A stretch of 60,672 nt of DNA from a virus (IMGVR_UViG_3300025146_000015:1-60672), one strand, 5' to 3'; shown: positions 31,486-56,530, numbered from the stretch's first letter. The notes: generated by a model from the letters alone, not told the origin. Program-made: numbers and translations.

Positions 31486-31789
31486 CTGCCTTGCCATGCC
31501 CAGCCCGGCCATCCACACCTCGACGCGCGTTGGCCCGCCTAGCCTCGGGCCCTCCCGCTGGAATCGAACCAGCGTGCAACCATTGGAGGGCTTGTCCAAA
31601 CCTTGCCTTGCCCTTCCGCGCCGGGACTTGCCATGCACTGCCGAACCGAGAATGTACCGAGCCCAGCCATGGGCACGCCGCCGGGAATCGAACCCGGCGT
31701 ACGACCATCGCGTGCTGTTCATCCAAGCCATGCCCTGCCGAGCCTCGCCTCGCCTGGCCCCGTATGGCCTCGGCTCACCATGCCATGCC
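31486..31789 (-). ncRNA. three GG(C/T)-NN pentamer tracts separated by two tRNA-like T-loop elements (putative guide-RNA array)
   Basis: Tracts at 31725-31789, 31598-31668 and 31486-31544; 43-nt elements at 31673-31715 and 31549-31591. Confidence 0.75.
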
Positions 31790-32353
31790 TCACTCGACCG
31801 TGAACCTTCCGTATCGCGGTCGAAAATCTCCAACGCCAACCCTGGACCCCGCCGCGATCATCGCCTCGCGGGCTTGCTCCGGGTTGAGAATCTCCTCATC
31901 CACCTGCAGCGTCACCTTGCATGACCACGACCGGAAGATTGGTCGAGCTCGCATGATGCGCTGCCTCTGTTGCGCGACCGTTCGGTAGTCACAGAATCGA
32001 CCGTCGGCGTACAACTTCTTGATGTCCTTAGGACCGTCGTACTCGAGAGGAAAGAACGCCTGGTCACAGTAGACGGCGGCGCTCGCTTCCTTCCCGAGCT
32101 TCGCCTTGCGAGCTCCCTGAACGATGGTGGCCAGAATGACGTCGGCCGGAAGGGAAGGGTGGCCCTGTTCGTCGACGTAGAGCCCGCCACGCCATTCTAG
32201 TTCCTTGATCGCCATCAACGTCTCTTCGGTCTTGTTCTTGCCCTTCGCGATCTTCGACTTTTCCCGAGTGATTGGATCCGTCGGGTCAGCGAGACGCGCG
32301 TTGTGCATGAGAAGAGGCGCTACGCCTGTTAGCTTCAGATTGACTGTCTTCAT
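31790..32353 (-). CDS. stand-alone Cas7/RAMP-like RNA-binding protein (Vipr-like)
   Basis: AAGGAG RBS; LKLTGVAPLLMHN, GLYVD..GHPSLP, RARPIF and Gly-rich C-terminal loop GSRVGVGDFRPRYGRF; arrays on both sides. Confidence 0.7.
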   Translation of the reverse strand: MKTVNLKLTGVAPLLMHNARLADPTDPITREKSKIAKGKNKTEETLMAIKELEWRGGLYVDEQGHPSLPADVILATIVQGARKAKLGKEASAAVYCDQAFFPLEYDGPKDIKKLYADGRFCDYRTVAQQRQRIMRARPIFRSWSCKVTLQVDEEILNPEQAREAMIAAGSRVGVGDFRPRYGRFTVE

Positions 32354-32363
32354 GATGTTCTCC

Positions 32364-32575
32364 TTCCCCCGAAGGGGAATCCTTGCCTCGCCCAATCCGG
32401 CCTCGCTCGAACCGCTCTGCCTGCCAGTTGGGGGTTTCCTAACCTCGCCATGCCATGCCATGCCTCGCCGAGCCGTGCCCTGACCAACCCGGCCGCGCCG
32501 CGCCCAGCCTTGAAGCGGGCGCCGTTGGTGCGACTGTCATGGCGTTCACAAATCAGCGACGCCCGCTTCAAGGCT
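32364..32575 (-). ncRNA. long hairpin, two GG(C/T)-NN tracts and a UUCG hairpin upstream of the RAMP-like gene
   Basis: 16-bp inverted repeat 32506-32521/32560-32575; 14 pentamers at 32440-32509; degenerate tract 32383-32425; TTCCCC-TTCG-GGGGAA. Confidence 0.7.
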
Positions 32576-32839
32576 ACGTCATTCACGGAAAGAGCACTTC
32601 CCCGCTTCCAGGCCATCGGCGCTCGGCCTCGGCGCGTAGACGCTCCTCGGAGGCGTCTCCGTAAAATCGAAGCGTCACGAACATTCGGATCAGTTGCCCC
32701 CTCGCCTCGTCGCGCTCCATCACCGCCTTGAGCGCACACGTTGGGCAGAGGATGGGGGACGAGCGCCGCCGAGTCCACGTCGCTAGGCAGAATCACATCG
32801 CATCCGCAGCCGTCGCACTCCACGTACTGGTACGTCGTC

Positions 32840-33568
32840 TCAGTCATAGTTGATCCTCCCTGGCAATTCCAGCCTCCATCGCTTCCTGTCCTCTGGGCAA
32901 ATCAACATGATGGCCCCGTCTGGACGGTCTCGCCAATTCTCTCCATCGTAGTAGCGCAGTCGATACACTGGACCGTACGCCGTGGTGTCGAGGCAGAGAT
33001 GGTTTCCGACGATGGGAGGGCCGTCCTCGGGAGCTGGCCATGCCTGTCTTACCTCGTCGCGCTCCCGTCGGGCAGCGTCACGCTCAGCCGCTACCCTTGG
33101 TAGCTCCACTCGAGCCAACTGCCAGTTTCCATCGAGCAGGTCTCTGATGGTGACGATGGCCTCGGTGCGCTTCGACTCAAGCATAGCGATTCTGTGCTCG
33201 AGTTGCTCCGCGTAGTCGCGCAGCGGGAGGTAGTCACCATCCTCTGCACCTTCGAGCCAGAGTTCTGCTGCTCGGGTCATTGTACCCTGTAGTGCCGTCT
33301 CCAGTCGAGCGTACTGCTCCTTGCGCAGTTCGCACCTTGATTCACACTCGCGACACGGCTTCTCGTCTTCCGGATCAGTTGGATCGCTGGAAGGCTCGGC
33401 TCCGATGGGTTGGTCCTTGGACTCCAGGGCAGCGACGCGCGCGCCGAGTTCATCCAGCACGCCACCGAGCGCTGTGACATTGATCGTTGCAGACCTGATC
33501 AGTTCTCCGCGTACGAACACGTTGGGCTCGATGCATCGTTCGCTCGGTTTCATCGTCCCTCCGGCCAA
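32840..33568 (-). CDS. hypothetical coiled-coil protein
   Basis: 242 aa ORF; the real start may be the ATG at 33553. Confidence 0.55.
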   Translation of the reverse strand: MAGGTMKPSERCIEPNVFVRGELIRSATINVTALGGVLDELGARVAALESKDQPIGAEPSSDPTDPEDEKPCRECESRCELRKEQYARLETALQGTMTRAAELWLEGAEDGDYLPLRDYAEQLEHRIAMLESKRTEAIVTIRDLLDGNWQLARVELPRVAAERDAARRERDEVRQAWPAPEDGPPIVGNHLCLDTTAYGPVYRLRYYDGENWRDRPDGAIMLICPEDRKRWRLELPGRINYD

Positions 33569-33735
33569 GTACGTCCTTCGGGGATTGGAAACCCTAGCTT
33601 TTCCAGCAGTGGCGCGATGACGTCCCGCTCCACTTCTGCCATCGTCCAGTACGCGAAGGTAGCCAGTAGCTGGGCCTCGTAGCGGGTCAGTGTCACGGCA
33701 GGATCAGGGTGTTGGATCTCGTTCTCTGTCTTCAT
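33550..33735 (-). CDS. hypothetical protein
   Basis: 4-nt overlaps with its neighbours. Confidence 0.5.
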   Translation of the reverse strand: MKTENEIQHPDPAVTLTRYEAQLLATFAYWTMAEVERDVIAPLLEKLGFPIPEGRTWPEGR

Positions 33736-33968
33736 CGTTCCTCGATTCCGCAGGCGCGGAGTAGGGCAATGGGCAGCATCATGTAGGCGGAGCCCAGTTG
33801 TTCGGTTTCGAAGCTGTCGCTACCCGCCCGTGCATGGACCCAAATGCTGATGAGTTTGACGATCGCCGGAGGTGTAAACCCTGCGTCCGCGTACCGCGCG
33901 AGCTGATGTCGAAGCTCCTCGACCGTGAATTGGTAGACGACGATCGGGCCCTGCTGGTCCCGGGTCAC
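33732..33968 (-). CDS. hypothetical protein
   Basis: 4-nt overlaps with its neighbours. Confidence 0.5.
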   Translation of the reverse strand: MTRDQQGPIVVYQFTVEELRHQLARYADAGFTPPAIVKLISIWVHARAGSDSFETEQLGSAYMMLPIALLRACGIEER

Positions 33969-34408
33969 AGGGTCACCGTTCCACTCTCAGGATCCACCAC
34001 ATGGTCTCCAGGCTCGAAGGGCTGTGACAATCGGTATCCGTTCGTAGTTGTGATCACGCGGTCATATCCGTTGCATCGCATATTGCTGAGCAGAATACTT
34101 TCCTTCGGGTCGTGTCTGGCCTCGACGTCAGCAATGGTTTCGACCACACCCCCGAGATAGTACATCCCGGAGCGCTCGACGGTCTTGGGCTCCACGTCTA
34201 GGGTGCCACCCTCACCATCTGGAATTGGGCCCGCCACGACCCTGGTCTCGAACCTGAAGCCGTACGGGATAGCTCCGTGTCTCTCGGTAATGGACTTGGC
34301 CACAGATGTGGCGGTTTCAGTCGACCACGATTCAATGGGTCTGACGCTCGATTCGGCTATGAACGTTCCCGGGCTGTAGAATACCACGTAGTGTTTGCGT
34401 TTCGTCAC
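33965..34408 (-). CDS. hypothetical protein
   Basis: AGGAGG RBS before GTG; KHYVVFYSPGTFIAE...PYGFRFET. Confidence 0.65.
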   Translation of the reverse strand: MTKRKHYVVFYSPGTFIAESSVRPIESWSTETATSVAKSITERHGAIPYGFRFETRVVAGPIPDGEGGTLDVEPKTVERSGMYYLGGVVETIADVEARHDPKESILLSNMRCNGYDRVITTTNGYRLSQPFEPGDHVVDPESGTVTL

Positions 34409-34543
34409 ATTGTCCTCCTGTGGTCCATGACCACGAGCAGAGCTATCAACGGGCACGGTCGCGGGGGAGGACGCCCGGTGCTCTCGCTGCTAGCTCTGCG
34501 CGCAGGTCATGGCTCCCCCGCAGAGTCAGAGCACCAAGCACAG

Positions 34544-34603
34544 CCGGAGATGCGGGCTGGAGGCTCAGGTGCCCCGGAGATGCGGGCTGGAGGCTCAGGT
34601 GCC
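34544..34603. repeat. perfect 30-bp tandem duplication
   Basis: CCGGAGATGCGGGCTGGAGGCTCAGGTGCC x2. Confidence 0.9.
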
Positions 34604-34635
34604 CTGGGTCCACGGGGGAGGGACATGGTGGTGGA

Positions 34636-35454
34636 TCAGCCTTCCTGGCCCGGCTCTCTTTCCACCACAGGTTGCGCCTGCGCCTGGGCAGTGGGATTCC
34701 CGAGCTTGATGCGGCGACCGTCCTGCTCGGGATCTGTAGGAGCCGGTGACGCTTCCGTGTTCACCGAGACCCCTTCCGCCGTGATCACCTCTCCGACTTC
34801 GCCATCCTCGATGGTCAGGACTGACCCGCTCAGCATGTCGTAGATCGACTTCAGCATCTTCCGGGTTGCCTTCCCGATCACGGCGTCAACGCCCATCCCG
34901 GAGTTGACCTTGACCGGTATCCGGCTGTCGTGCACGGTCCCGTCGGCGGTCTTGGTGACATCGCGGATCATGGTGTACGGTTTACCTGAGACCATCCACG
35001 TCGCGCGCATCGGCACGATCGCTCCGCCGTCTTTCATCACGGGGACGCCGGGTGTGATGATCAGATCGGACAACCCCTCGAACTCTCGCACCTTCCGAGC
35101 GAACCCGTTCTTGGCCCCGTACATCCTACCAGCGATGATGTTGATCTCGTTTCCGACCGGATAGAACCCGTGGATCAGCGCTTCGACGACGACGTTACGC
35201 ACGGTCGGCAGGTCATAGCCTCCGTCGCGATCCTTGTCGGTCACGAACCCGAGCGCAGACCCCTGCAACGGCATGAACACAGAGCGCATGATGTCGTCGG
35301 TCAGGCAGCGACGGATCTGCGTTACGCCGGTGGCCAGGATGACCGCTTGACGGAGCACTGGCATTTCGCGCAGCGCCGCCGCGTTGCACTGCTCGAGCAC
35401 GACCTCGATGTCTTTGGTCGCTTGGTCTACGGTCGATAGCTTTTCGGTTGCCAT
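34636..35454 (-). CDS. putative single-strand annealing protein (RecT/Beta-like)
   Basis: GFYPVGNEINIIAGRMYGAKNG; next to an exonuclease gene; acidic tail. Confidence 0.55.
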   Translation of the reverse strand: MATEKLSTVDQATKDIEVVLEQCNAAALREMPVLRQAVILATGVTQIRRCLTDDIMRSVFMPLQGSALGFVTDKDRDGGYDLPTVRNVVVEALIHGFYPVGNEINIIAGRMYGAKNGFARKVREFEGLSDLIITPGVPVMKDGGAIVPMRATWMVSGKPYTMIRDVTKTADGTVHDSRIPVKVNSGMGVDAVIGKATRKMLKSIYDMLSGSVLTIEDGEVGEVITAEGVSVNTEASPAPTDPEQDGRRIKLGNPTAQAQAQPVVEREPGQEG

Positions 35455-36555
35455 TCACTGTCCTCCTGAGACTCGCTTGCTGACGAGTCGGTAGCTGGTC
35501 TTCCTGGTCACGGCGCCCGCGGTGTCGAGCGCCGCGTCAAGCTCTCGGACGGACGCCGCTCCTTGCCCTCTGGATGCCCGCTTCCGCACGATGTCCTCGG
35601 CTTTACTGAGACTGACGTCCACGCATTGCGCGAACTCCTTGTCGCCGAACCCATGTGATTCTAGCACTGGGAACGCCTTCAGGGGATCGAGTTCTCGCGG
35701 ATGCGTACCCTCGAGGGTGAGTCGGTGGTCGGATCCCACGACGTCGCCGGTGGCAACGACAAGGTCTCGGACCACTTGCTGCGCAGCCTTCGCGTACCGC
35801 TCGACCAACTTGGCCGTGTCGAGCAGGGAGATCACCTGATCGGGTGTCATGGCGGCGAGCTGATCCGCGGCGTTGCCAGGCACGAAGGCCTCGACGGAGC
35901 GACGCACCATCGCTCGCGCGGCCGGGCACGACGCCGTGCGCTGGCACCATTGGCAGTGCGATCCGGTGGTGTAGACTCCGTTCCAGTCGACGACCACCGA
36001 CGCCAGATCGTCAAGCCATTCGTGGGCCCCGCGCTGGCCCATCGTGTAGCTCTCGATCTCCTGGTCGCGGACCCACAGGAGCGTGCTGGTGACCTGCGTC
36101 AGTTCGGGGTGCTGGTATAGGACGAGGGACGCATACGTCTTCAGTTGCGCGGAGTAGTCGGAGTCTTTGCGGCCAAACTTCCAATCGCCTACGCGGGCGA
36201 TCGACCCACCGATCGACAGGATGTCGGCGTGCCCGGTGACGACGATGCCGCCGGTCTCGTAGCGCAGAGGGACCTCGGTCATCGCGTTCGGAAAGCTCTC
36301 CTCGACCTGTCGCCAAAGCTTGGTTGCAAGCGCGCAGAGAGTCCGGAGCTCCTTGTCTTCGGGCAAGGTGTCCCACGGGATGCTGCCGGTTTGGACGAGC
36401 ACTGCCGCTGCCGCGTGCGCCGCGGTGCCCATGTCGGCCGCGTTGCTGTCCTGGTCGATCAGTAGCTCGCTGGGCTCCGGGTAGAGGCTGCCGGCGCAGC
36501 GCATGATCTGCGGAGTCGCCGAGGCGCGAATGTGGATGGTGCGTGGTGTTTCCAT
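35455..36555 (-). CDS. PD-(D/E)XK exonuclease (DUF2800/Cas4-like)
   Basis: GTAAH, GHADIL, DWKFG, QLKTYA and CQWC...CP motifs. Confidence 0.8.
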   Translation of the reverse strand: METPRTIHIRASATPQIMRCAGSLYPEPSELLIDQDSNAADMGTAAHAAAAVLVQTGSIPWDTLPEDKELRTLCALATKLWRQVEESFPNAMTEVPLRYETGGIVVTGHADILSIGGSIARVGDWKFGRKDSDYSAQLKTYASLVLYQHPELTQVTSTLLWVRDQEIESYTMGQRGAHEWLDDLASVVVDWNGVYTTGSHCQWCQRTASCPAARAMVRRSVEAFVPGNAADQLAAMTPDQVISLLDTAKLVERYAKAAQQVVRDLVVATGDVVGSDHRLTLEGTHPRELDPLKAFPVLESHGFGDKEFAQCVDVSLSKAEDIVRKRASRGQGAASVRELDAALDTAGAVTRKTSYRLVSKRVSGGQ

Positions 36556-36579
36556 GCTTTCCCTCCTGTCCCTCCGACT

Positions 36580-36879
36580 TCACACCGGCGTGGTGTTCGT
36601 CGGATACGGATTCTCGCGACGGTGTTCAAACTGAAACAGCAGCAGCTCGGCCTCGCGAGTTCGCTCGAGTAGCTCCTCGACGCCGTCTTGGATGCCGCGC
36701 CTCCTGAGTTCGACGAGAGCGCCCATCAGCCCGGACTGCACGAGCAAGACGTCCGTCTTGATGTCGTCGTCGGTCTTGCGCTCGATCAGCCGCATTGCCC
36801 ACGGGCAGCCTGGGAGCGTGACGCTGCACCGAAGCGCCCAGTTGCGCGCACGTTGGGCCCAGGTCAGTTGAGTCGTCAT
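36580..36879 (-). CDS. hypothetical protein
   Basis: ATG overlapping the upstream stop (MTTQLTWAQ...). Confidence 0.45.
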   Translation of the reverse strand: MTTQLTWAQRARNWALRCSVTLPGCPWAMRLIERKTDDDIKTDVLLVQSGLMGALVELRRRGIQDGVEELLERTREAELLLFQFEHRRENPYPTNTTPV

Positions 36880-39716: not shown

Positions 39717-40064
39717 CTATTCGTCGGGCGGATTGCTCGACCTGGGCCTCGTCTCGGATTGCGGCTCCTCGTCATCGACGAAGGGAACCGGATCTGAGCT
39801 CGTGAGCCACCCGGGACGAACCCTCAAGGCTCGCTCGATGCTGATCAGGGTGGTGACGCGCATCCGTTCTAGACCGATGTACGAGAGGAGCCTCGACACG
39901 GTTGATTGCGCCAGTCCTGCGCGTTTCGCGAGGATCTCTTGGGACAGCTTGCGTCTGCGGCCAGCTTCGGCGACCCGTCGCGGCAGTGCCCAGAGCTCGT
40001 CCGGGATTCCTGGGGGCCGGCGTTTTGGTTCCAGCGCTGTGAGCTCTCTCGGTCTCGCGGGCAA
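39717..40064 (-). CDS. XRE-family HTH repressor (CI-like)
   Basis: RRKLSQEILAKRAGLAQSTVSRL...ALRVRPGWL; divergent from a cro-like gene; start uncertain. Confidence 0.75.
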   Translation of the reverse strand: MPARPRELTALEPKRRPPGIPDELWALPRRVAEAGRRRKLSQEILAKRAGLAQSTVSRLLSYIGLERMRVTTLISIERALRVRPGWLTSSDPVPFVDDEEPQSETRPRSSNPPDE

Positions 40065-40102
40065 GTCGGGCTCCCTCTCGGTGGTTCTAGGCGATCCTGT
40101 TT

Positions 40103-42270: not shown

Positions 42271-42627
42271 CTCAGGCGTGGGTGCTGGTGGCGACGAGGG
42301 AGGCGGCATGAACCGTTCGGAACGTAGATCAGCGATGGAACGCCGAGTTGGACTCGCTCCCCCAGAGGAATGCGAGGAGAGGGCATTCCTCCGGACGTTA
42401 CTCGAAGCAAGCGCATGCGGGCTACTGAAGGGCGGCGCCGAGCGTGAGTATCTCGAAGACATCCGCGACATGATCAACCTGCGGCTCGCGTTCATCGGTG
42501 AGAAATCATGAACATGAGGCCGGACGTGTCGATGTGCCCGCTGTTCGCGACGCTGCAGGTCGTGGCCGGGCTGAAGCAACCAGAAAAAAGCCGCCGGGAG
42601 TCAGCCGGCGGCAGGAAGGTAACCGAG

Positions 42628-43368
42628 ATGAGCAAGAGCATAGCACAGGACCGAGAGAACATCGTCGAGATTCAGGTCGATCGGCTGAAGGCGTGCAGAA
42701 TTCAGCCGAAGTCGCGCATGGACGAGCGGAGAATCATCGCGCTCCGGAAGAACATCGAGGGGGCAGGAAAGATCTACCAGACGCTCGTCGTCGTACCGTC
42801 AGGAACGAACACGTGGACCATCGCCGACGGCCACCGGCGCTGGGTGATAGCGAAGGCGCTTGGTTGGACCGCGGTGCCCTGTCGAGTGATCGACAATGGC
42901 ATTGCTGTTGAGACGCTCTTCATTCTGCTCAACGCCGACACGGCGCGTGTGACCGGAGCAGATTGGCTGACGGGATGGGCTCTAGCGAACAAGGCTGTTC
43001 GAGAGGAGCTTTTTGAGAAATATCCGAGGCGGGCGTCGACTATCAATCGGGCGATCGACGTCTATGGTGAACAGCGGCTGGTCGAACTTGGGAAGGGAAA
43101 CTGCAAGCTGGTCGACGGAGCCAGCATCCTGAAGAGCTATGATCCAGCGAGGGCATCGTGGGCGCTGAAGTTGCACTCGCGACTGAAGGAGTGGGCGACG
43201 GTGAAGGTCCCAACTCCTCGAGGTATCGGCGAAGTGTTGTTGCTGCCAAAGATGACAGGACTTGCGCAGGATTGGCTCAAGAATGTCACGCCGACGCAGA
43301 AGCGGGCCGACAAGATCGCCAACGCTTTGCGACGCAACTCCTTCCCAGTAGCGGACAAGTGGAGCTGA
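42628..43368 (+). CDS. ParB N-terminal-domain protein
   Basis: IADGHRRW motif; alternative start at 42508. Confidence 0.75.
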   Translation: MSKSIAQDRENIVEIQVDRLKACRIQPKSRMDERRIIALRKNIEGAGKIYQTLVVVPSGTNTWTIADGHRRWVIAKALGWTAVPCRVIDNGIAVETLFILLNADTARVTGADWLTGWALANKAVREELFEKYPRRASTINRAIDVYGEQRLVELGKGNCKLVDGASILKSYDPARASWALKLHSRLKEWATVKVPTPRGIGEVLLLPKMTGLAQDWLKNVTPTQKRADKIANALRRNSFPVADKWS

Positions 43369-43372
43369 CCCC

Positions 43373-44191
43373 GTGACGAGCTTCGAGATCACGAAAATCA
43401 GGGTCGATGAATCGCATCGACCTCTCGACGAGGCCACTCTTGAGGCGCTCGTGGACAGCATTCGTGAACTCGGCTTGCTCCACCCCATCGTCGTCGAGGC
43501 GGATGGCGGGAACGTGGTGCTCGTTGCCGGCAGGCACAGGCTCGAAGCCTGCCGGCGCCTGGGCCACAGGGCGATCGACGCGGTCAACATCTACGCCATG
43601 ATCTTGGATGACGACCCGTCAGAGGCCGAATGCCTCCGGCCGATCGTTGAAATTGAAGAGAACCTATGTCGGCTGAACGTCAAGGACCGCAAGGCAGCCA
43701 CGAAGCGTCTGCTTCAGGCGAAGCGGGCCCTGAAGTCCTACCGGGAGAAGAGGGCCGCCGCGAAGGCTTCCGAGCAAGCACAGGCCGAACCGCAGGTGGA
43801 GATTATCGAGACACCATGTCCGGAAACTCGCGGCCGCCCAACCAAGAAGTCCAGGAAGACACGGGAGTTTCCTGCCGCTTCAAAGGGCCGCCCCCGCAAC
43901 GCGGCCAAGGACGAGGTCGCCAAGACCATTGGCGTCACCCGGCGCACCGTCGACAGGGCGCTGCAGGAGGAGCCGGAGGCTCCGGAAGAACCGTCACTCC
44001 CGAAACGGTCGGCTCCAAAGCCTCCGAAGGCCAACCCAACCACGTCGCCTCCGAAGTCTCGTCTCATCGTCGAGACCTGCCAGCAGTCATGGCTACTGCT
44101 TCACCCGAAGGAACGTGAGAACTTCCGGATGGCCTACAAGATGATGACACGCGAAGAGCGCGCCGCGTTCTGGGCATGGGTGGCAGCGTGA
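43373..44191 (+). CDS. ParB/Spo0J-like protein
   Basis: SIRELGLLHPIVV, LVAGRHRLEA and EENLCR motifs; HTH VAKTIGVTRRTV. Confidence 0.8.
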   Translation: MTSFEITKIRVDESHRPLDEATLEALVDSIRELGLLHPIVVEADGGNVVLVAGRHRLEACRRLGHRAIDAVNIYAMILDDDPSEAECLRPIVEIEENLCRLNVKDRKAATKRLLQAKRALKSYREKRAAAKASEQAQAEPQVEIIETPCPETRGRPTKKSRKTREFPAASKGRPRNAAKDEVAKTIGVTRRTVDRALQEEPEAPEEPSLPKRSAPKPPKANPTTSPPKSRLIVETCQQSWLLLHPKERENFRMAYKMMTREERAAFWAWVAA

Positions 44192-44956: not shown

Positions 44957-45342
44957 TGCCCGAGTCCCTCTCCCCTCTCCGCACCCGTGGTGAAGCGGCA
45001 GCTTTTCTGCACGTCCACCCGTCGACCTTCGACCGGCGCATCCGTTCAGCTATCCAGCCTGTGCGGATCGGTGGCAGGGTCTTCTTTCACCAGGAAGACC
45101 TACAGGCATGGCTCGACCGACAGAGGGCTGGAAGCTCAGATGGAAAGGCGACCGCCCTGCGACTGTGCGGTTCACGGTCGACGGTCGAGAGCGCGAAGTC
45201 TCTACCGGTGAGCGGGAGCCTGCGCGAGCTGCGGAGGAAGCTGAGCGCATCTACGCCGCTGCGGTCTCCGGGAGGCTCCAGCGACGCCGGCGGGCGGCAC
45301 ATGGCGGGGTCAGCCTCGAGGGGGTCTTCACGTCATGGCTGA
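44956..45342 (+). CDS. excisionase-like winged HTH protein
   Basis: LRTRGEAAAFLHVHPSTF...VRIGGRVFFHQEDLQAWL; overlaps int. Confidence 0.7.
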   Translation: MPESLSPLRTRGEAAAFLHVHPSTFDRRIRSAIQPVRIGGRVFFHQEDLQAWLDRQRAGSSDGKATALRLCGSRSTVESAKSLPVSGSLRELRRKLSASTPLRSPGGSSDAGGRHMAGSASRGSSRHG

Positions 45343-46163
45343 CCGAGGCTCCGATCGACCCGAGAACGGCGTCCATCTACGCGCTCTATGGAGAAGCCCA
45401 CCTGATTCCAGCGTTCGATACGCTTGGGGAAGTTACGCCGGAGTCGGTCGCACGCTACATCCGGGCCAGGTTGCGGGTGGTCCAGGCCGGAACCGTGCGG
45501 AAGGAGCTCTCCGCCCTCAGGGGCGCCGTCGCCTGGGCTGTGGAGCAGGGGTTCCTGTCGGAGGCCCCGCTGCTACCAGGTGTTCCGAAACGTGCCCCAG
45601 GTACTCGCTACCAGCGGCCCAGCAGGCAGCGCGCGGATCAGCTCAGCCCGGCGGAGGTACAGGCAATCATAGGGGCCCTGCCCGAGCGTGCGCCGCGGGG
45701 AGGCTACCCAGTACGCGCTCGGTTTATCGTGGCCTACGAGGCGGGTCTGAGGCCATCGGTGCTCGACGTCCTGTCTGTTCCCGAGCACTACGAGCGGGAG
45801 CGGCCCCTGCTGGTCATCCCGTTCGAGCACGACAAGGACTCTCGGGAGCGCCGGCTGCCACTGACACCACGAGCCGCCGGGGCACTCGACTCGGTTGCCC
45901 CGGAAACCGGGCTGATATTCGGAGCGCACCGGTACACGACACACGTGAAGTCGGCAGCCCGAGAGGTGCTCGGACAGCAGAGGGGCGACCGGTTCTCTGG
46001 GGCACACCTGAGGTCTGCCCGGATCACGCACTGGCTCGAGGAGCCATCTTCGACCCTGGCGGGGGCTCAGTGGCTGGCCTGCCACTCCCGCGCCTCGACG
46101 ACGGACGGATACGTGCGGGCGAGCGAGCGGGCCGCGCGGAGAATGTTGGGGCTGGACGAGTAG
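45108..46163 (+). CDS. int: tyrosine recombinase (integrase)
   Basis: AGLRPS (R), HLRSARIT (HxxR), CHSRASTTDGY (H, Y); adjacent att site. Confidence 0.9.
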   Translation: MARPTEGWKLRWKGDRPATVRFTVDGREREVSTGEREPARAAEEAERIYAAAVSGRLQRRRRAAHGGVSLEGVFTSWLTEAPIDPRTASIYALYGEAHLIPAFDTLGEVTPESVARYIRARLRVVQAGTVRKELSALRGAVAWAVEQGFLSEAPLLPGVPKRAPGTRYQRPSRQRADQLSPAEVQAIIGALPERAPRGGYPVRARFIVAYEAGLRPSVLDVLSVPEHYERERPLLVIPFEHDKDSRERRLPLTPRAAGALDSVAPETGLIFGAHRYTTHVKSAAREVLGQQRGDRFSGAHLRSARITHWLEEPSSTLAGAQWLACHSRASTTDGYVRASERAARRMLGLDE

Positions 46164-51452: not shown

Positions 51453-51465
51453 GGGGTCGATCACC

Positions 51466-51789
51466 ATGCACGAGTCGGTTCTCCAGCGCGGGATCCTCGA
51501 TGCCATCACAGCATCAGGTTACTGGGCCATGCGGCTCAACAGCGGGACCACGGTGCTCGGTGAGGGCCCATCGAAGCGAGTCATCAAGATGGCCCCCGCC
51601 GGGACCCCTGACATCCTGGTGCTCGTCCCATACGGCTTTCTTGAGGTGAAAACCGATCGTGGGAAGCTGAGCCCAGCGCAGTGGGTCTGGCACTGCAAGG
51701 CCTCAGAGAAAGGGATTCGCGTGCGCACAGTGAGGTCGATTCGAGAGGCTCTGGATGCGGTGAAGGCTTGGTGTTCTGATGGTCGCTAG
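51466..51789 (+). CDS. VRR-NUC nuclease
   Basis: GTPDIL...FLEVKTDRGKLSPAQ. Confidence 0.85.
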   Translation: MHESVLQRGILDAITASGYWAMRLNSGTTVLGEGPSKRVIKMAPAGTPDILVLVPYGFLEVKTDRGKLSPAQWVWHCKASEKGIRVRTVRSIREALDAVKAWCSDGR

Positions 51790-51978
51790 AGCCGACAACG
51801 CTTGGCAGGGTCTCCCGCGGGTGAACATGGATCCACCCGGACGCCTCAGGGCCAGAAACACACGAAGCCAGAGCGTCACACCGGTTCAGTCGTGCCGGGC
51901 CGACTTGGAGCTGGGTCGCGCCGAGTTGGGTGTCGGCGGTGCCCACTGGTCGGATCCGGACGAAGACGGTGGTGGAGG

Positions 51979-52914
51979 ATGATCACGATCAAAGAGGAGT
52001 TCATCCGCTGCGACAAGCTTCGTCGAGCGGTCAAGCTTGGTGGTCCAGCCGTGGGGTTGGTCTGGTTGGCCCTGAAGACCTACGTGTCCGAACACCTGAC
52101 CGACGGATTCGTTCCTGTAGACGATGTAGACGGTCTTGTAGACGGTCTTGTAGACGCAAGGTGTAGACGCCGATGCATCGACGCTCTGGTCTCATGTGGT
52201 CGTCTGCTTGCCGACGGTGGGCGCGGATCTGGTCTCGTGGACCGCGTCGAGCATGGCCTACGGCTCCATGATTACCTCGAACATGCAGACGATGCTGAGT
52301 ACGAGCTGAACAGAAGAAGACTCCGATCAGAGCGCCAGAAGAAGTGGCGCAGGGCCAAACAGCAAAGAGAGATTGATGCGTCAAACAAGCTTGGCCAACA
52401 ACCAAATGTAGACGATGTAGACGCGTCTACAGTAGACGATGTAGACGCGTCTCCCTCGTGCGCGCGTACGGGGGCGCCCGCGTCCCCAGCCCAGCCCAGC
52501 CCAGCCCAGCCCAGCCAAACCGAGTTAGATCTAGATCAGGATCCCCCCTATGGTCCCCCAGTGGGGGACGCTCCAGCCAAGGTCCGGCCACGGAAGAGCC
52601 CGAGGTCCAAACTCCCCGAGGGGTGGCAACCGAACGAGGGACACCGATCGCTAGCCACCGAAGTTGGTGTCGAGCTAGCGGCCGAGGTTCCCAAGTTCGT
52701 GGATCATGCGGCAGCCACCGACCGACGGATGGCTGATTGGGATGCTGCGTTTCGGACATGGCTCCGCAACGCGAAGGATTTTCACCGAGGTGGGTTGCTA
52801 CCCTCTGGGGCGAGGGATTCGAGGGCGGACGCGCAGATGCGACGACAGCTCGCGCACATCGAAGACTTGAGACGACAGGAGGCAAGAGAACGTGACCAAG
52901 CTGCAAGCAAGTGA
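51979..52914 (+). CDS. replication initiator protein
   Basis: TDGFVP, LHDYLE and C-terminal LPEGWQPN...FVDH...DWDAAFRTW; internal iterons. Confidence 0.75.
   Translation: MITIKEEFIRCDKLRRAVKLGGPAVGLVWLALKTYVSEHLTDGFVPVDDVDGLVDGLVDARCRRRCIDALVSCGRLLADGGRGSGLVDRVEHGLRLHDYLEHADDAEYELNRRRLRSERQKKWRRAKQQREIDASNKLGQQPNVDDVDASTVDDVDASPSCARTGAPASPAQPSPAQPSQTELDLDQDPPYGPPVGDAPAKVRPRKSPRSKLPEGWQPNEGHRSLATEVGVELAAEVPKFVDHAAATDRRMADWDAAFRTWLRNAKDFHRGGLLPSGARDSRADAQMRRQLAHIEDLRRQEARERDQAASK
52116..52452. repeat. (T)GTAGACG iterons, putative replication origin
   Basis: Five copies at 52116-52169; four direct and one inverted copy at 52407-52447. Confidence 0.75.
52485..52516 (+). repeat. (CCCAG)6 microsatellite encoding a PAQPS linker
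   Basis: Directly visible in the sequence. Confidence 0.85.
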
Positions 52915-53494
52915 GTTGGTGGCAACGCTGATGGCAGCATTCCCGCAGTCGCAGGTCAGCGAGGCGACTACGGGGGTGTACGAGGAGGACTTGGCTGAAC
53001 TCGACTTTGCCATCGGCATCAAGGCGTGCACGAGACTTCGGCGCACATGCAAGTTCCTCCCGAGCGTCGCCGAGATTCTCTCGGCCGTGGCCGACATCGA
53101 GTATGGCCCGCAACGTCCCGGCGGCGAGGCGTGGTGTGACGTGCTCGAGCAGAGCCGCCGCGTCGGTTACTGCGGCACCCCGCGGTTCGAGGACCCGATC
53201 GTCACGGAGATCGTGCGCCGAACCGGGTGGCGAGAGATGTGCCTGAGCCAGGACGGAGCCCCGGACCGGGCCCGGTTCATCGAGCTGTACGACCAACTGG
53301 CGCGGCAGGCGCGCCTGGACCTGGTGTCTGGCGTCCCGCTCACCAGGCGGCTCCCTGGAGCCTCGTCGACGCCGAAGTCCCTCACCCACGCAGTGGGTCC
53401 CAAAGACGCAGCCACGGGGCAGCCAGATGGCAGCAATGGCCCATCCAGCATGGCTCGGCTACTCGAGAGGGTCCCGGGTGGCCGCCGTGCGTGA
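52892..53494 (+). CDS. helicase loader/inhibitor-like protein (G39P-like)
   Basis: LMAAFP...KFLPSVAEI...GWREMC...DRARFIELY; follows the initiator gene. Confidence 0.65.
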   Translation: MTKLQASELVATLMAAFPQSQVSEATTGVYEEDLAELDFAIGIKACTRLRRTCKFLPSVAEILSAVADIEYGPQRPGGEAWCDVLEQSRRVGYCGTPRFEDPIVTEIVRRTGWREMCLSQDGAPDRARFIELYDQLARQARLDLVSGVPLTRRLPGASSTPKSLTHAVGPKDAATGQPDGSNGPSSMARLLERVPGGRRA

Positions 53495-53799
53495 CGACGA
53501 GGTCCCGGACGACATTCAGGGACCGGACCGCTTGGCGATTCTGAGGCTCGATCCGATCTTGAGGCCGGCCGCTGTCAAGATCACGCGAAACGTGCGGGAG
53601 CGGGAGAGACTCCGGAGGCCGACGGGAGAGCCGCCCGACCCAGATGGCATCGACGGGAGGTACCCATGACCATGAACGACCAAGCGGAAGGCCATGGCAC
53701 AGTACGCCCCGCTCATGGTCGCTCCCGGGGACGGCGACACGACCTCGACGCACCGCCACCGAACTACGTGGATCACGACGCCATTGATGGGAGGTATCC

Positions 53800-53997
53800 A
53801 TGAGCCGCAGCGCTGAAGCGAAGAGACGTCGACGCGAGAAGCGGGACGCGGAGCGTGTTCGTGTCTGGCGATCCGATCCGGATGACGTCAGAACGCGCAA
53901 GCATCTCAACGCGCTCCCACCATGCTCCGCGACCATCGGTGAGCACACGGGAATGGGAGAAGAAGACTTGGACAACACGAAGGAAGGTGAGGCATGA
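53800..53997 (+). CDS. small protein with Arg-rich N-terminus
   Basis: GGAGGT RBS; MSRSAEAKRRRREKRDAE. Confidence 0.5.
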   Translation: MSRSAEAKRRRREKRDAERVRVWRSDPDDVRTRKHLNALPPCSATIGEHTGMGEEDLDNTKEGEA

Positions 53998-54551
53998 AGC
54001 GCTACGAACCGACACTCCAGTGGAGGCAAGGCCATGGCCAGATGACAGACTTCTGCAAACCCACCGTGATGCTGGTCGAGAGTGAGACCGGCAGCGTCGT
54101 GAGGTGGGAGGAGGCTGCAGAGCACGCGAAGGACATCCCAATTCTCCAGCGGACAGTTCGCCGTCTCGATGACGAGATCGATAGGCTCCGTGGTGAGCTT
54201 CTGAGCGCTGAGTCCGAGCTCTGCATGCGGGTGGCCCGACCCCGAGCCATCGAAGGCGATGACGTGGGGGGCGGCGCTCGATGCAATGCGCGCAGGCAAG
54301 AGCGTGGCCTGGTACCACTGGCACGGTACCAGCGTCAGCCTGTGCCATGACGGCGTCATCCGCTTCGATGGTCCAGTGGATCAGCGTCGTCCATTCGAGT
54401 TCCGTCTCGAATACGCCGAGAAGGCACATTGGCGCGTGGTCGAACCGGCATGCGCGGAGGTAGTTCCGGACCGTCACGAGACGGCCAATTACGCAGCGTT
54501 GATGGCGTCACTTGGAGACGAGGAATACTGAAGCGAAAGGAAACGAACCAC

Positions 54552-55058
54552 ATGGCGGCTGAACAACGAGCAGGAATCAACCTGCAGGAACTCGCGACTC
54601 GCCTCAAGAACGCTGTCACGACAGGAGCAACGGCTCCGCTCGTCGTTGCGGGAGACGTCGCTCGGCTTGCCGAGAACTGGGCGGCGTATCGAGAGGAGGC
54701 CGGAGGGGTAGCTTGCACGACGTGGATCCAGGGCGTGTGTGGAGGGGGCCGAAACCTCGCCTGGTGGATGAGCCGACACGAGGCCGTTGAGAAGTTAGGG
54801 GAGTCAACGCGCCGCACTACCGATCACCATGTCGCCGTCTGGTTGGCGAACAAGATCCCCGAGACGGAGCACGACCGCGTTGCCCTCATCATGAGGCGCG
54901 AACAGAAGCAAAACCACGGCGTGCCGATCAGCATGCCGATGGCGAAACGTGTGCTGCGTGCCGAGGGCCTGATCGACGGCTCACAGAGCAAAAAGTGTCG
55001 GCGTTGCGAGCAACTTGAGCAACTGCTCGAGGATCATGACATCGCAGTGCCGGAGTGA
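54552..55058 (+). CDS. hypothetical protein upstream of the TIGR-like array
   Basis: AAGGA RBS; 168 aa; C-terminal CRRC; stop codon lies within the first array repeat. Confidence 0.7.
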   Translation: MAAEQRAGINLQELATRLKNAVTTGATAPLVVAGDVARLAENWAAYREEAGGVACTTWIQGVCGGGRNLAWWMSRHEAVEKLGESTRRTTDHHVAVWLANKIPETEHDRVALIMRREQKQNHGVPISMPMAKRVLRAEGLIDGSQSKKCRRCEQLEQLLEDHDIAVPE

Positions 55059-55350
55059 GAGCTGGGCAACGAAAAGCGAGAAGAACAACGAGCGGGCTAG
55101 GGTCAACGAAGTGATGACGCGTCAGCGAGCGAGCGCAATCCAACGAAAGCGGGCACGACGAAACGAGGGGCCGCCAGCGAGCGACAAGCGTCCAGCGAAG
55201 CGAGCGAATGCCACTGAGCGACCGAGGCTCAACGAAGCGAACCACCGGCAACGAGCGAGGGTCCAACAACGAAGTGACAGCTGTCGAGCGAGCGCAACGA
55301 AAAGCGGAAAGAAGAATAGACAACGAAGCGATCCGGAGCGACTGAAAGGA
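55053..55350 (+). ncRNA. TIGR-like dual-repeat array
   Basis: Alternating AACGAA(A)nGYGA and ANYGAGCGA repeats separated by mostly 9-nt variable spacers; unit about 37 nt. Confidence 0.8.
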
Positions 55351-55359
55351 ACCTCATCA

Positions 55360-56406
55360 ATGAAACGACAGACGAGCACTGAAAGCACCACGACACTGAA
55401 AAAGGTCGAACGCAAACTGAAGGGCAAGCGGGTCGCCGTGCCCGTGTACGACGACCCAAGGACAGAGCTCCGGCGCCTCGTCAAGGTTCACAAGTCTTTG
55501 ACGAAGGCGTCGGTCGCGCTGCACCACATGGCCAGTGACCGACAGCGCCCACCGAACCTACCGAACGACATGGACACGGTCCGCTCTGAGGCTGCGTCGA
55601 GAGGGTCGATGGCAGACACGAAGTCGATTGACGCCGTGCTTGCGGGGACCGCCACAGCGGCGCAGAAGGTGCGCGCCGAATACCTGCAGAAGAACGTCGT
55701 CTGTCTGCTCCCGAAGGATGACCAAGAGGATCTGCTATCAGCGTCAAAGAGGCGCAGCGCCTCAGCTGCAAAGCTCGAGTCAGCGATGGTGAAGGAGCTC
55801 CGGAAGCTGGACGTCTACAAGCTCTTCATGGTCAACGTCTTCGGGCTCGGCCCCGTGGTATCCGGATACCTGGGTGCCATGGTCGACATTCAGAAGGCGG
55901 AGAAGCCGAGCCAGCTGATCCGGTATTGCGGGTATGCCTGCATCGACGGCAAGGCCGAGCGGCGCCGGGAAGGGTTCGCGCCACGCACAGGGATCACTGG
56001 CAACGCCGAGGCGAAGGGCACGTTCAACCTCGAACTGAAGACCCGCATTTGGCAGGCCATGGCAGCAATGTGGAAGAACGGGGCGAAGTCGAACTGCACG
56101 ACCAAGTACCTCACGCGGTGGCGGCAGGAGAAAGATCGGCGGCTCCTCCAGGGACAGACGAAGGGCAAGGCACACGATGCGGGCCGACGTGCAGCGACGG
56201 ACCTCCTGCTGTACGACCTGTACCTGGTCTGGCGCGCCATCGAGGGCCTGCCGTCATGGGTGACGTGGTACGACTGGACGAGGGGCTACGAGCACGGACG
56301 CGGCCCCCTGCCCCGAGAGAACGCGCCAAGAATGCTGACGGTCGACGAGGCACTGGCCATCGTCGGCAACGTCGGGAAGGACATCGTCGCAATTGCGGCG
56401 GAGTGA
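55360..56406 (+). CDS. tasA: IS110-related Nop-domain RNA-binding protein lacking a nuclease domain (TasA-like)
   Basis: GLGPVVSGYL...KPSQLIRYCGY...FNLELKT...AHDAGRR...LYLVWRAIEGLP; no N-terminal DEDD/RuvC; arrays on both sides. Confidence 0.75.
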   Translation: MKRQTSTESTTTLKKVERKLKGKRVAVPVYDDPRTELRRLVKVHKSLTKASVALHHMASDRQRPPNLPNDMDTVRSEAASRGSMADTKSIDAVLAGTATAAQKVRAEYLQKNVVCLLPKDDQEDLLSASKRRSASAAKLESAMVKELRKLDVYKLFMVNVFGLGPVVSGYLGAMVDIQKAEKPSQLIRYCGYACIDGKAERRREGFAPRTGITGNAEAKGTFNLELKTRIWQAMAAMWKNGAKSNCTTKYLTRWRQEKDRRLLQGQTKGKAHDAGRRAATDLLLYDLYLVWRAIEGLPSWVTWYDWTRGYEHGRGPLPRENAPRMLTVDEALAIVGNVGKDIVAIAAE

Positions 56407-56530
56407 GTGAGGTTCAACGAAGCGAACCATGCTATTGAGCGAACGATGAATCAACGAAGCGAAGGCCCGACATCGAGCGAAACACGGCCAACGAAGCAAA
56501 TGACATCCAACGAAAAGCGAGACCAAATGA
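56401..56530 (+). ncRNA. second TIGR-like array
   Basis: Same repeats with seven 8-10 nt spacers (gtgaggttc, accatgct, acgatgaatc, aggcccgac, aacacggcc, atgacatcc, gaccaaatg). Confidence 0.75.

What the first reader, a model, noticed from the sequence alone, without database searches (positions are those of the whole stretch)
31486..56530. One temperate phage carries two unrelated putative RNA-guided systems, one in each early arm
Seen: the pentamer/RAMP locus is in the leftward arm and the TIGR-like locus is in the rightward arm; neither has a recognisable nuclease. Inference: parallel programmable repressors for inter-phage competition or host-gene silencing, possibly expressed at different stages or sharing targets.
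Basis: inference. Interest (0 to 1): 0.7.

Follow-up and report, generated by a model that had tools for sequence, protein, structure and literature searches.

The report
Phage carrying VIPR and TIGR-TasA
One uncultured phage carries two different, recently published guide-RNA systems that bind DNA without cutting it (VIPR and TIGR-TasA), one in each early gene arm; both are real, but they look like independent add-ons of known kinds.

Summary
Both loci are real, and both belong to published families.

**Leftward arm (minus strand).**
- Gene 31790-32353 is a Vipr protein. Its profile hits the SUSP1 Vipr structure 36pp at E 1.1e-52.
- It is flanked by four (GGYNN)n guide tracts, which makes this a VIPR system (bioRxiv 10.64898/2026.04.26.720920).

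**Rightward arm (plus strand).**
- Gene 55360-56406 is a nuclease-less Nop-domain TasA. Its profile hits TasR 9mty at E 8e-24.
- It lies between two dual-repeat TIGR arrays with a 37-nt period.

**What I could not support.**
- I found no targets, either within the phage or elsewhere, and no shared targets.
- The pairing is rare among relatives. Vipr is present in 1 of 14 Tas-bearing viral records, and there the Tas is only a remnant. Tas is present in 0 of 80 Vipr-bearing records.

I read the pair as independent stacking of two accessory modules. Earlier agents of this scan reported the same pairing in several other phage genomes.

**One extra observation.** Two vrRNA tails here, and tails in 20 of 87 related loci, are tRNA-like T-loop minihelices with strong covariation. 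The main texts of the three VIPR preprints do not mention tRNA.

"Temperate" is plausible but not shown.

The parts
32506..32575 (-). Long hairpin at the 5' edge of the VIPR locus (about 20 pairs). Its 3' arm runs into the first pentamer unit. It may be a boundary, terminator or processing element.
   Evidence: RNA fold of 32500-32585(-): -48 kcal/mol, z -6.36, 0 of 200 shuffles fold as well.
32435..32509 (-). vrRNA tract 1, upstream of vipr: 14 of 15 GGYNN units.
   Evidence: Period-5 scan and the sequence itself.
32364..32434 (-). Region after tract 1. It holds a degenerate T-loop-like stretch (GGTTCGAGC, + strand 32404-32412), a short GG-pentamer run and a GC hairpin just before the vipr RBS. 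It does not match the tail model.
   Evidence: Sequence, fold, and no R1 match at E <= 0.01.
31790..32353 (-). vipr gene, 187 aa: a RAMP-fold protein of the Vipr family.
   Evidence: phrog_4652 at E 1.2e-50. Profile A1 against PDB 36pp_D 'SUSP1 Vipr protein' at E 1.1e-52. The single sequence aligns over its full length at E 5.9e-29, with the thumb (RxxxxRPIFRxWS) and G-loop (GVGDxRPRxGRF) stretches shared. AF2 pLDDT 96.3. Csm3/Cas7 are the top Foldseek hits.
31720..31789 (-). vrRNA tract 2. It starts at the vipr stop codon and has 12 of 14 GGYNN units.
31661..31725 (-). Tail of vrRNA 2: a tRNA-like minihelix made of an outer stem, a linker and a T-arm with a GGTTCGATTCC loop.
   Evidence: R1 match at 46.3 bits, E 9e-7. 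Weak Rfam mascRNA-menRNA hit at E 0.35, below threshold. Covariation on alignment A3.
31593..31647 (-). vrRNA tract 3: 9 of 11 GGYNN units.
31537..31599 (-). Tail of vrRNA 3: a second tRNA-like minihelix.
   Evidence: R1 match at 46.0 bits, E 1.1e-6. The MFE fold shows a 7-bp outer stem stacked on a 6-bp T-arm.
31471..31510 (-). Short tract 4 (5 clean GGYNN units) ending in a GC hairpin just before the RBS of the next gene. There is no tail, so its function as a guide is doubtful.
30961..31452 (-). Candidate vipr-accessory gene (vap), 163 aa, of no known family.
   Evidence: No Pfam, PHROG, NCBIfam or PADLOC hit. tblastn relatives lie downstream of vipr in 12 of 87 related loci, best E 6e-18. 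It is not similar to the vap1-like second genes of six named phages.
55066..55340 (+). Upstream TIGR array. It has four canonical 37-nt units starting at 55104, 55156, 55193 and 55230, plus degenerate units at both ends.
   Evidence: Repeat families D1, D2 and D4 and my parse.
55360..56406 (+). tasA gene, 348 aa: a Nop-domain protein without a nuclease domain.
   Evidence: Profile A2 against TasR 9mty_A at E 8.3e-24 and TasH 21kl_A at E 2.7e-15. The top 10 Foldseek chains are all TasR or TasH, E 5e-7 to 6.5e-6. NCBIfam NF052498 TIGR_Tas_endo at E 2.9e-15, 56.8 bits, below the cut-off of 100. phrog_4285 at E 2.5e-9. The AF2 model is all-helical, pLDDT 88.3.
56414..56530 (+). Downstream TIGR array: two canonical units starting at 56415 and 56452, then truncated units.
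39717..40064 (-). cI-type HTH regulator at the head of the leftward arm (context for the 'temperate' claim).
   Evidence: phrog_2328 transcriptional repressor at E 3e-9. Pfam HTH_3 at E 5e-6.
45108..46163 (+). Divergent tyrosine-recombinase-like gene (context for the 'temperate' claim).
   Evidence: phrog_1 integrase at E 1.9e-22. No Pfam hit and no PF00589 match in the six-frame search. Weak XerC hit at E 1.5e-5, far below cut-off.

Best explanation
The phage carries two independent, intact, nuclease-free RNA-guided DNA-binding modules of published kinds.

(1) A VIPR system in the leftward arm. By homology to SUSP1 VIPR, Vipr protomers would polymerise along each (GGYNN)n vrRNA. They would hold the GGY bases and present the NN pairs, which read double-stranded DNA with one base skipped per unit. 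Binding would silence transcription of a competing element. Here the guide tracts sit before vipr and between vipr and a 163-aa accessory gene. Two of them end in a tRNA-like T-loop minihelix, which I take to be the 3' cap or processing handle.

(2) A dual-repeat TIGR-TasA system in the rightward arm. By homology, a TasA dimer would bind roughly 36-nt tigRNAs cut from the two arrays. Spacer A would pair with one DNA strand and spacer B with the other, and the bound complex would block transcription.

Shown here: the anatomy, family membership, conservation of the arrays in relatives, and the rarity of the pairing. Inferred from homology and not shown: RNA expression, processing, DNA binding, silencing and targets. 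I read the pairing as stacking of two separately acquired accessory cassettes, not as one combined machine.
For: VIPR membership:
- for the protein, and for the tracts.
- Same-strand tracts of at least 7 GG units occur in 76 of 86 related Vipr loci, against 5 of 86 on the opposite strand. These include named phages Trine, LittleE, wV8, Medea1, MakoManhole and prophiBWHA-1.

Tail structure:
- 10 of 11 predicted pairs show compensatory changes.
- 92.5% of cells are paired against 59.2% in shuffles. The covariation score is 0.80 against 0.19 shuffled and at most 0.21 for slid controls.
- There are 56 model matches, all on the vipr strand, and 18 of them are outside the training set.

TIGR membership:
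-.
- The closest relative, L008 (65% identical Tas), has the same edge and loop repeats with different spacers on both sides of its gene.
- Related arrays flank tas in L008-L013, which is 6 of the 13 loci examined. L015 was left out.

Independence of the two modules:
- Vipr occurs in 1 of 14 Tas-bearing viral records.
- Tas occurs in 0 of 80 Vipr-bearing records, including 0 of the 19 that are at least 90% complete. The positive control found Tas in 4 of 4 known records.
- The loci lie 23 kb apart on opposite strands.

Published function of relatives: VIPR Results; TasA repression, section 12.
Against: - No natural target was found for any guide, so activity is unproven.
- Both arrays contain degenerate units. 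Tract 4 has only 5 clean units and no tail, and the region after tract 1 does not match the tail model.
A nuclease or another activity there is therefore not excluded.
- Two of 15 Tas-bearing records (this one and G009) also carry Vipr. That is far more than naive independence across 2.9 million viral contigs would give, so some ecological or functional association cannot be ruled out. Earlier agents of this scan also report the pairing in several other phages (not re-tested by me).
- The 80 Vipr records tested are the best 80 of 171 confirmed relatives, and many are fragments.
- Profile A2 represents one TasA clade and could miss distant Tas proteins.
Confidence: 0.8

Rival explanations
1. 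The two silencers form a functional pair. VIPR, in the repressor-side leftward operon, would act during lysogeny or early-left transcription. TIGR-TasA, in the replication-side rightward operon, would act during lytic growth. Together they would give layered exclusion of the same or complementary competitors.
For: The loci sit in opposite arms headed by a cI-type HTH gene. Both families are published silencers. The pairing recurs: G009 and earlier reports of this scan.
Against: The pairing is not conserved among relatives: 1 of 14 and 0 of 80. In G009 the Tas is a truncated remnant without an array. No shared or self targets were found. Promoter and terminator scans gave nothing above shuffles. 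There are no expression data.
Confidence: 0.12
2. One or both loci are decaying remnants that no longer work, for example arrays drifting after loss of selection.
For: There are degenerate units in both arrays, a short tail-less tract 4, no targets found, and a truncated Tas in the only other co-occurring record.
Against: Both ORFs are full length and keep the family's conserved columns. Vipr keeps R135, R137, W143, G169, R178 and G182, invariant in 52 sequences. Tas keeps 14 invariant columns, including G309 and H312. Both models are confident. There are six canonical tigRNA units and two vrRNAs with intact covarying tails.
Confidence: 0.06
3. The pentamer tracts are not guides but some other periodic element, such as two-tier G-quadruplex-forming (G2N3)n runs or binding sites for a TRAP-like RNA-binding protein.
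For: The (GGNNN)n sequence could formally form G-quadruplexes. This is my inference and no call tested it.
Against: The third position is kept as a pyrimidine. The tracts are tied to a protein that matches the solved SUSP1 Vipr at E 1e-52. They keep the gene's strand in 76 of 86 loci across GC contents from 31% to 72%. This matches the published vrRNA grammar exactly.
Confidence: 0.02

Closest known systems
VIPR systems (Viral Interference Programmable Repeat), founding member Escherichia phage SUSP1 (type II). Sources: bioRxiv 10.64898/2026.04.26.720920, 10.64898/2026.04.26.720927 and 10.64898/2026.10.15.759431.
   Same: A small stand-alone RAMP protein with the thumb and G-loop stretches shared with SUSP1 Vipr. 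GGYNN tandem tracts of 9-14 units lie on the gene's strand, both upstream and downstream. A second small gene follows. The system is carried by a phage, and the effector has no nuclease domain.
   Different: - The protein is only about 36% identical to Felixounavirus Vipr.
- The array lies between vipr and the accessory gene.
- Tails are tRNA-like T-loop minihelices, not the SUSP1 pseudoknot (against 91, 123).
- The accessory gene is not similar to the vap1-like genes of six named phages.
Dual-repeat TIGR-TasA systems, e.g. FpTIGR-TasA of Flavonifractor plautii (Faure et al. 2025, PMC12045711), and TasA repressors (Xu et al. 2026, bioRxiv 10.64898/2026.09.09.750476).
   Same: A solo Nop-domain protein. 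Arrays of two alternating short repeats separated by 8-9-nt spacers lie on both sides of the gene. The system is phage-borne. The unit length is close to the published 36 nt.
   Different: - The unit is 37 nt.
- The repeats are CAACGAAGCGA and NNCGAGCGA, not the UG...CCA boxes described for TasR.
- It scores below the NCBIfam equivalog cut-off, 56.8 against 100 bits.
- It is not in an operon with a tasParB gene. The two ParB_N genes lie 11 kb upstream.
Class 1 CRISPR Cas7/Csm3 backbone subunits.
   Same: The fold: the best solved-structure matches by Foldseek are Csm3 chains, E 7e-5 to 1e-3, TM 0.45-0.55.
   Different: There is no CRISPR array, no other cas genes and no second RRM. The guide has a 5-nt rather than a 6-nt period. 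Sequence identity is about 10%.
tRNA-like processing elements such as mascRNA/menRNA (Rfam RF01684) and tRNA acceptor/T-arm minihelices.
   Same: The vrRNA tails have an outer stem stacked on a T-arm with the canonical GGTTCGAnTCC loop. There is a weak Rfam match to mascRNA-menRNA.
   Different: - The Rfam match is below threshold (20.4 against 42.5 bits, E 0.35).
- There is no D arm or anticodon arm.
- ARAGORN calls no tRNA.
- The 3' flank is not CCA in most copies.
- Processing by RNase P or RNase Z is only my inference.

Membership tests
VIPR | Vipr protein: a minimal RAMP with RRM core, thumb and glycine-rich loop, homologous to SUSP1 Vipr. | tested here: met
   Profile against 36pp_D at E 1.1e-52. 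Full-length pairwise alignment at E 5.9e-29. Foldseek top hits are Csm3/Cas7.
VIPR | vrRNA tracts: tandem YNNGG/GGYNN repeats (at least 4, typically 9-16) beside vipr on its strand, with a conserved GGY and variable NN. | tested here: met
   Four tracts of 14, 12-13, 9 and 5-7 units. The same association holds in 76 of 86 related loci.
VIPR | A structured, conserved 3' tail after the tract. | tested here: met
   Two of four tracts end in a covarying T-loop minihelix. This tail class differs from the published SUSP1 pseudoknot. Tracts 1 and 4 lack a model match.
VIPR | An adjacent vipr-accessory (vap) gene. | tested here: inconclusive
   A 163-aa gene follows on the same strand and recurs downstream of vipr in 12 of 87 loci. 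It has no family hit and no similarity to vap1-like genes. The vap1-6 definitions are in closed supplements.
VIPR | vrRNAs are expressed, bind Vipr, and silence DNA targets by the 1-nt-skip rule. | not testable with these tools
   No RNA holder was listed. No target was found.
TIGR-Tas (TasA, dual-repeat) | A Tas protein with a Nop domain related to TasR and TasH. | tested here: met
   Profile against 9mty_A at E 8.3e-24 and 21kl_A at E 2.7e-15. The top 10 Foldseek hits are all TasR or TasH. NF052498 at E 2.9e-15, but below its equivalog cut-off.
TIGR-Tas (TasA, dual-repeat) | An array of two alternating 8-12-nt repeats (edge and loop) separated by roughly 9-nt spacers A and B, lying upstream and/or downstream of tas. 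| tested here: met
   37-nt units of 11+9+9+8 nt on both sides of the gene. The feature is defined in PMC12045711, section 4.
TIGR-Tas (TasA, dual-repeat) | Repeats are conserved and spacers differ between related loci. | tested here: met
   L008 has identical repeats with all spacers different. Arrays flank tas in 6 of the 13 relatives examined.
TIGR-Tas (TasA, dual-repeat) | TasA subtype: no HNH or RuvC domain. | tested here: met
   No Pfam domain. The AF2 model is all-helical.
TIGR-Tas (TasA, dual-repeat) | A Y/H processing dyad on a C-terminal loop of the Nop domain (SpTasH Y289/H296). | tested here: inconclusive
   A GYEHG loop at 309-313 has G309 and H312 invariant in 48 sequences and low pLDDT. 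I did not align it residue by residue to SpTasH. The residues come from PMC13421893 passages and Xu et al., section 10.
TIGR-Tas (TasA, dual-repeat) | Processing to roughly 36-nt tigRNAs and split-strand DNA binding. | not testable with these tools
   No RNA data. Self and locus scans stayed at control level.
tRNA / tRNA-like RNA | Cloverleaf or curated tRNA-like family match. | tested here: not met
   ARAGORN found 0 genes. Rfam gathering search found 0. The only hit is a sub-threshold mascRNA-menRNA match at E 0.35. The tails work like a T-arm/acceptor minihelix but are not members of a curated family.

The most novel reading that the evidence does not exclude
The phage splits its RNA-guided silencing by life-cycle stage. 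VIPR is transcribed with the repressor-side operon and TIGR-TasA with the replication-side operon. In addition, the vrRNA array is matured by the host's tRNA-processing enzymes, because each guide ends in a tRNA-like T-loop minihelix. That would be a guide-processing route not described for VIPR, where hammerhead ribozymes and pseudoknot tails are the published forms.
Probability: 0.15. Interest if true: 0.6.

Novelty: new member of a known kind. Interest (0 to 1): 0.3.

Why it matters
- It gives one more natural example of a phage stacking two nuclease-free RNA-guided silencers. That bears on how phages arm themselves against rivals.
- The pairing is rare among relatives, which argues that the two systems are modular cargo and not a co-evolved pair.
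- The tRNA-like tail class is found in 20 of 87 related loci, including mycobacteriophage LittleE and Gordonia phages Trine and MakoManhole. These are culturable systems in which vrRNA maturation and capping by a T-loop element could be tested.

Tried and rejected
**Searches that found nothing**
- Near-identical DNA search of 31486-56400 against GenBank phages: no match.
- tblastn of the Tas protein against GenBank phages: no match.

**Target decoding: vrRNAs (1-nt-skip rule)**
- The best scores in the window were 18 of 28, 16 of 26, 14 of 20 and 9 of 10 NN positions. These equal the permuted-order controls.
- Against 105 fetched loci the best scores were 19 of 28, 18 of 26 and 15 of 20, again at control level.
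- Exact 10-unit patterns found 0 matches in viral contigs in four scans, 0 in genome contigs and 0 in metagenome contigs.
- Exact scans miss imperfect targets, so this is not evidence that targets do not exist.

**Target decoding: tigRNAs**
- Six canonical units were scanned in two split-strand geometries and two same-strand ones.
- The best score in the window was 15 of 17 and in the 105 loci 15 of 18, both at shuffled-control level.
- I did not scan the collections, because 17-18-nt sites give many chance hits.

**Host identification**
- There is no close Vipr relative in genome contigs, so the host stays unknown.

**Expression**
- No RNA holder was listed for 30900-33000. I did not lay any reads.

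**Promoters and terminators**
- Nothing exceeded the shuffles.

**Accessory gene**
- The atlas look-up returned only unnamed viral clusters.

**Integrases**
- PF00589 and PF00239 six-frame searches of the record found nothing.

**Readings I rejected**
- The G-quadruplex and TRAP-like readings of the pentamers are dropped. See the rival explanations.
- I first read the T-loop stretches as attP-type tRNA fragments. I dropped that because they recur after tracts in 20 unrelated loci, with covariation.

**Literature limits**
- Supplements are closed. The VIPR type tables, the vap definitions and figs S9 and S17-S19 (tail and array architectures) may already show T-loop tails or this clade.
- My statement that tRNA-like tails are not described rests only on 0 hits for 'tRNA' in the main texts of the three VIPR preprints and 0 for 'T-loop' in one of them.
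- My statement that the VIPR and TIGR pairing is not in print rests on one search. It found one paper holding both words, and in the passages I saw that paper treats them as separate array classes.

Full report
**What the window is**

The window is a whole IMG/VR virus record of 60,672 bases. It is classed as linear and CheckV estimates it 84% complete. GC content is about 63%.

ORFs with high third-position GC show three blocks:
- a structural block on the plus strand up to about 27 kb;
- a leftward block on the minus strand from 28.2 to 40.1 kb;
- a rightward block on the plus strand from about 40.3 kb to the end.

A cI-type HTH gene (39717-40064, minus strand) heads the leftward block. The rightward block holds:
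- an anti-repressor/RhuM-like gene;
- two ParB_N genes;
- a divergent integrase-like gene (45108-46163);
- an AAA ATPase;
- a replication initiator (51979-52914).

**Locus A: the pentamer/RAMP locus is a VIPR system**

On the minus strand, four tracts keep a strict 5-nt period with GG(C/T) followed by two variable bases:

| Tract | Coordinates | GG-led units |
|---|---|---|
| 1 | 32509-32435 | 14 of 15 |
| 2 | 31799-31720 | 13 of 16 |
| 3 | 31647-31593 | 9 of 11 |
| 4 | 31510-31471 | 7 of 8 |

One search counted runs of 5 or more GG units: 16 in the window and 3-11 in each of the 20 Markov controls. I did not record the lengths of the control runs, so the tracts' length of 9-14 units is the signal.

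The gene between the tracts (31790-32353, 187 aa) has no Pfam hit but belongs to phrog_4652, a family of unknown function, at E 1.2e-50. A profile of 52 homologs matches PDB 36pp chain D, deposited as 'SUSP1 Vipr protein', at E 1.1e-52. The single sequence aligns over its whole length at E 5.9e-29, and the RPIFRxWS and GVGDxRPRxGRF stretches are shared. The AlphaFold model is very confident (pLDDT 96.3). Its best solved-structure neighbours by Foldseek are Csm3/Cas7 subunits, E 7e-5. The Foldseek library ends in April 2026 and did not return 36pp.

The VIPR discovery preprint (10.64898/2026.04.26.720920; Results read in full, methods sections 20 and 26) describes exactly this arrangement:
- a minimal RAMP protein (Vipr) carried by phages;
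- an accessory vap gene;
- vrRNAs made of 9-16 GGY/NN repeats followed by a structured 3' tail.

In that paper the NN pairs read double-stranded DNA with one base skipped per unit, and binding represses transcription of competing elements.

The association holds widely among relatives. Of 86 loci encoding relatives, six come from named GenBank phages and 80 from IMG/VR. Tracts of at least 7 GG units lie on the gene's strand in 76 of them, and on the opposite strand in 5.

**The tails**

After tracts 2 and 3 the RNA would form the following, in order:
- an outer stem;
- a 9-10-nt linker with a conserved GG;
- a 6-bp stem closed by a GGTTCGATTCC loop, which is the tRNA T-arm signature.

I aligned the two window copies with 36 similar elements from 16 related loci.
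- RNAalifold predicts 11 pairs, and 10 of them show compensatory changes.
- On that structure 92.5% of cells pair, against 59.2% in shuffles.
- The covariation score is 0.80, against 0.19 in shuffles (0 of 500 shuffles reach it) and at most 0.21 when the partners are slid.
- A covariance model built from the alignment finds 56 matches in 88 sources, all on the vipr strand. The matches fall in the window and in 20 of 87 loci, and 18 of them are outside the training set.

The Felixounavirus (SUSP1-clade) tails in L003 have no such element, so this is a different tail class.

ARAGORN and the Rfam gathering search find nothing here. A sub-threshold Rfam hit to mascRNA-menRNA (E 0.35) is only a resemblance. 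The word 'tRNA' does not occur in the main texts of the three VIPR preprints.

My inference is that the minihelix is the 3' cap of the filament, like the SUSP1 pseudoknot. It may also be a handle for host tRNA-end processing that separates successive guides.

The region after tract 1 does not match the model. Tract 4 is short and has no tail.

**The accessory gene**

The 163-aa gene after the array (30961-31452) has no hit in Pfam, PHROGs, NCBIfam or PADLOC. Its relatives lie downstream of vipr in 12 of 87 loci. The second genes of six named phages are all similar to one another but not to this one. I treat it as a vap of an unassigned type.

**Locus B: the TIGR-like locus is a dual-repeat TIGR-TasA system**

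Gene 55360-56406 (348 aa) has no Pfam hit. A profile of 48 homologs matches the TasR structure 9mty at E 8.3e-24 and TasH at E 2.7e-15. The AlphaFold model (pLDDT 88.3, all helices) has TasR and TasH chains as its ten best Foldseek hits. IS110/IS621 recombinases, Prp31 and box C/D Nop proteins follow. NCBIfam NF052498 'TIGR-Tas system RNA-guided endonuclease' hits at E 2.9e-15 but below its equivalog cut-off. That fits a nuclease-less TasA.

The flanking DNA holds 37-nt units of an 11-nt edge repeat, a 9-nt spacer, a 9-nt loop repeat and an 8-nt spacer. Four canonical units lie upstream and two downstream, with degenerate units at the array ends. This matches the definition in Faure et al. 2025 (PMC12045711, section 4).

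The closest viral relative (L008, 65% identity) has the same two repeats with different spacers on both sides of its gene. Arrays with related repeats flank tas in 6 of the 13 loci I examined. L015 was left out.

A GYEHG loop, with G309 and H312 invariant, may be the Y/H processing loop described for dual-repeat systems. I did not align it to SpTasH.

Xu et al. 2026 show that a TasA represses transcription in a guide-dependent way (section 12).

**Is the pairing more than coincidence?**

- Among 14 viral records with a Tas relative, one also has a Vipr gene (G009). There the Tas is only the C-terminal half (a 170-aa ORF) with no array nearby, and it sits 1.4 kb from a VIPR locus with a single tract.
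- Among the best 80 of 171 Vipr-bearing viral stretches, none has a Tas relative. That includes 0 of the 19 records at least 90% complete. The same profile found 4 of 4 known Tas records.
- Earlier agents of this scan reported VIPR together with TIGR-TasA in several other phage genomes and also judged them independent. I did not re-test those reports.

So the pairing recurs but is not conserved. Two of 15 Tas records carrying Vipr is more than naive independence would predict. Habitat, host and contig length confound that comparison, and I did not control for them.

**Targets**

Under the published rules I found no target for any guide.
- Self-scans of the window and scans of 105 fetched loci stayed at the level of permuted or shuffled controls, for vrRNAs and for tigRNAs.
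- Exact 10-unit vrRNA patterns had no match in the viral, genome or metagenome collections.

The absence of self-targets agrees with the VIPR paper's own control (passage).

**Temperate?**

Three genes are the only lysogeny signals:
- the HTH gene;
- the anti-repressor-like gene;
- a phrog_1 'integrase' match at E 1.9e-22.

The integrase-like protein has no Pfam hit and only a weak XerC match. Six-frame searches for PF00589 and PF00239 were empty. The record is incomplete. I consider 'temperate' plausible but not shown.

**Novelty**

Both systems are in print: TIGR-Tas in 2025 and VIPR in April 2026. A full-text search for both names together found one paper. In the passages I saw, that paper lists them as separate array classes. 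The TIGR repressor preprint does not mention VIPR, and the VIPR preprints do not mention TIGR.

This is therefore a new member of each known kind. It comes with a rare but recurrent pairing and one possibly undescribed detail, the T-loop tails.

Noticed in passing
window 31537-31599 and 31661-31725 (minus strand); also L001, L002, L005, L006, L035, L036, L038, L042, L045, L054, L058, L064, L067, L082, L085, L089, L093, L096, L099, L100: vrRNA tails that are tRNA-like minihelices: an outer stem, a linker with a conserved GG, and a T-arm with a GGTTCGAnTCC loop. They show strong covariation, and the class differs from the SUSP1 pseudoknot tail.
   Followed up: yes
G009 (L107 5626-8080; record 29626-32080): A second viral record holds both families. 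A truncated Tas (C-terminal half only, 170-aa ORF, no TIGR array found nearby) lies 1.4 kb from a vipr gene with one upstream tract of 14 GG units out of 18.
   Followed up: partly
window 32506-32575 (minus strand): A near-perfect hairpin of about 20 bp lies between the upstream small ORF and vrRNA tract 1 (z -6.4). Its role as terminator, insulator or processing site is unknown.
   Followed up: partly
window 52117-52160, 52406-52452, 52485-52516: Iteron-like GTAGACG repeats (TGTAGACGGTCT x2.7; GTAGACGATGTAGACGCGTCT x2) and a (CCCAG)6 run lie inside the replication-initiator gene 51979-52914. This is probably the origin of replication.
   Followed up: no
window 42508-43368 and 43373-44191 (+): Two tandem ParB_N-domain genes. 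They lie 11 kb from tasA, so they are not the published tasParB-tasA operon.
   Followed up: partly
window 28234-29433 (-): A PAPS-reductase/DUF3440 gene (phrog_2302, E 7e-83), IbrA-like, at the far end of the leftward arm. It is not an integrase.
   Followed up: no
window 58864-59556 (+): A minor-tail-protein gene (phrog_4688, E 1e-42) sits at the right end of the record. The structural module therefore seems to wrap around the record's ends, and the genome may be circularly permuted.
   Followed up: no
window 34544-34603: A perfect 30-nt tandem duplication inside the leftward arm (TRF score 122).
   Followed up: no
window 32583-32847 (-): The ORF starting at 32847 (MTETTYQYVECDGCGC...) turns arginine-rich after about 60 residues, while a second frame (32723-32583) reads like a real protein. 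This could be a frameshift or two small genes just upstream of the VIPR locus.
   Followed up: no
window 35455-36555 (-): A PD-(D/E)XK / DUF2800 exonuclease gene lies 3 kb upstream of the VIPR locus in the same arm. It is probably a recombination gene, and I found no link to VIPR.
   Followed up: no
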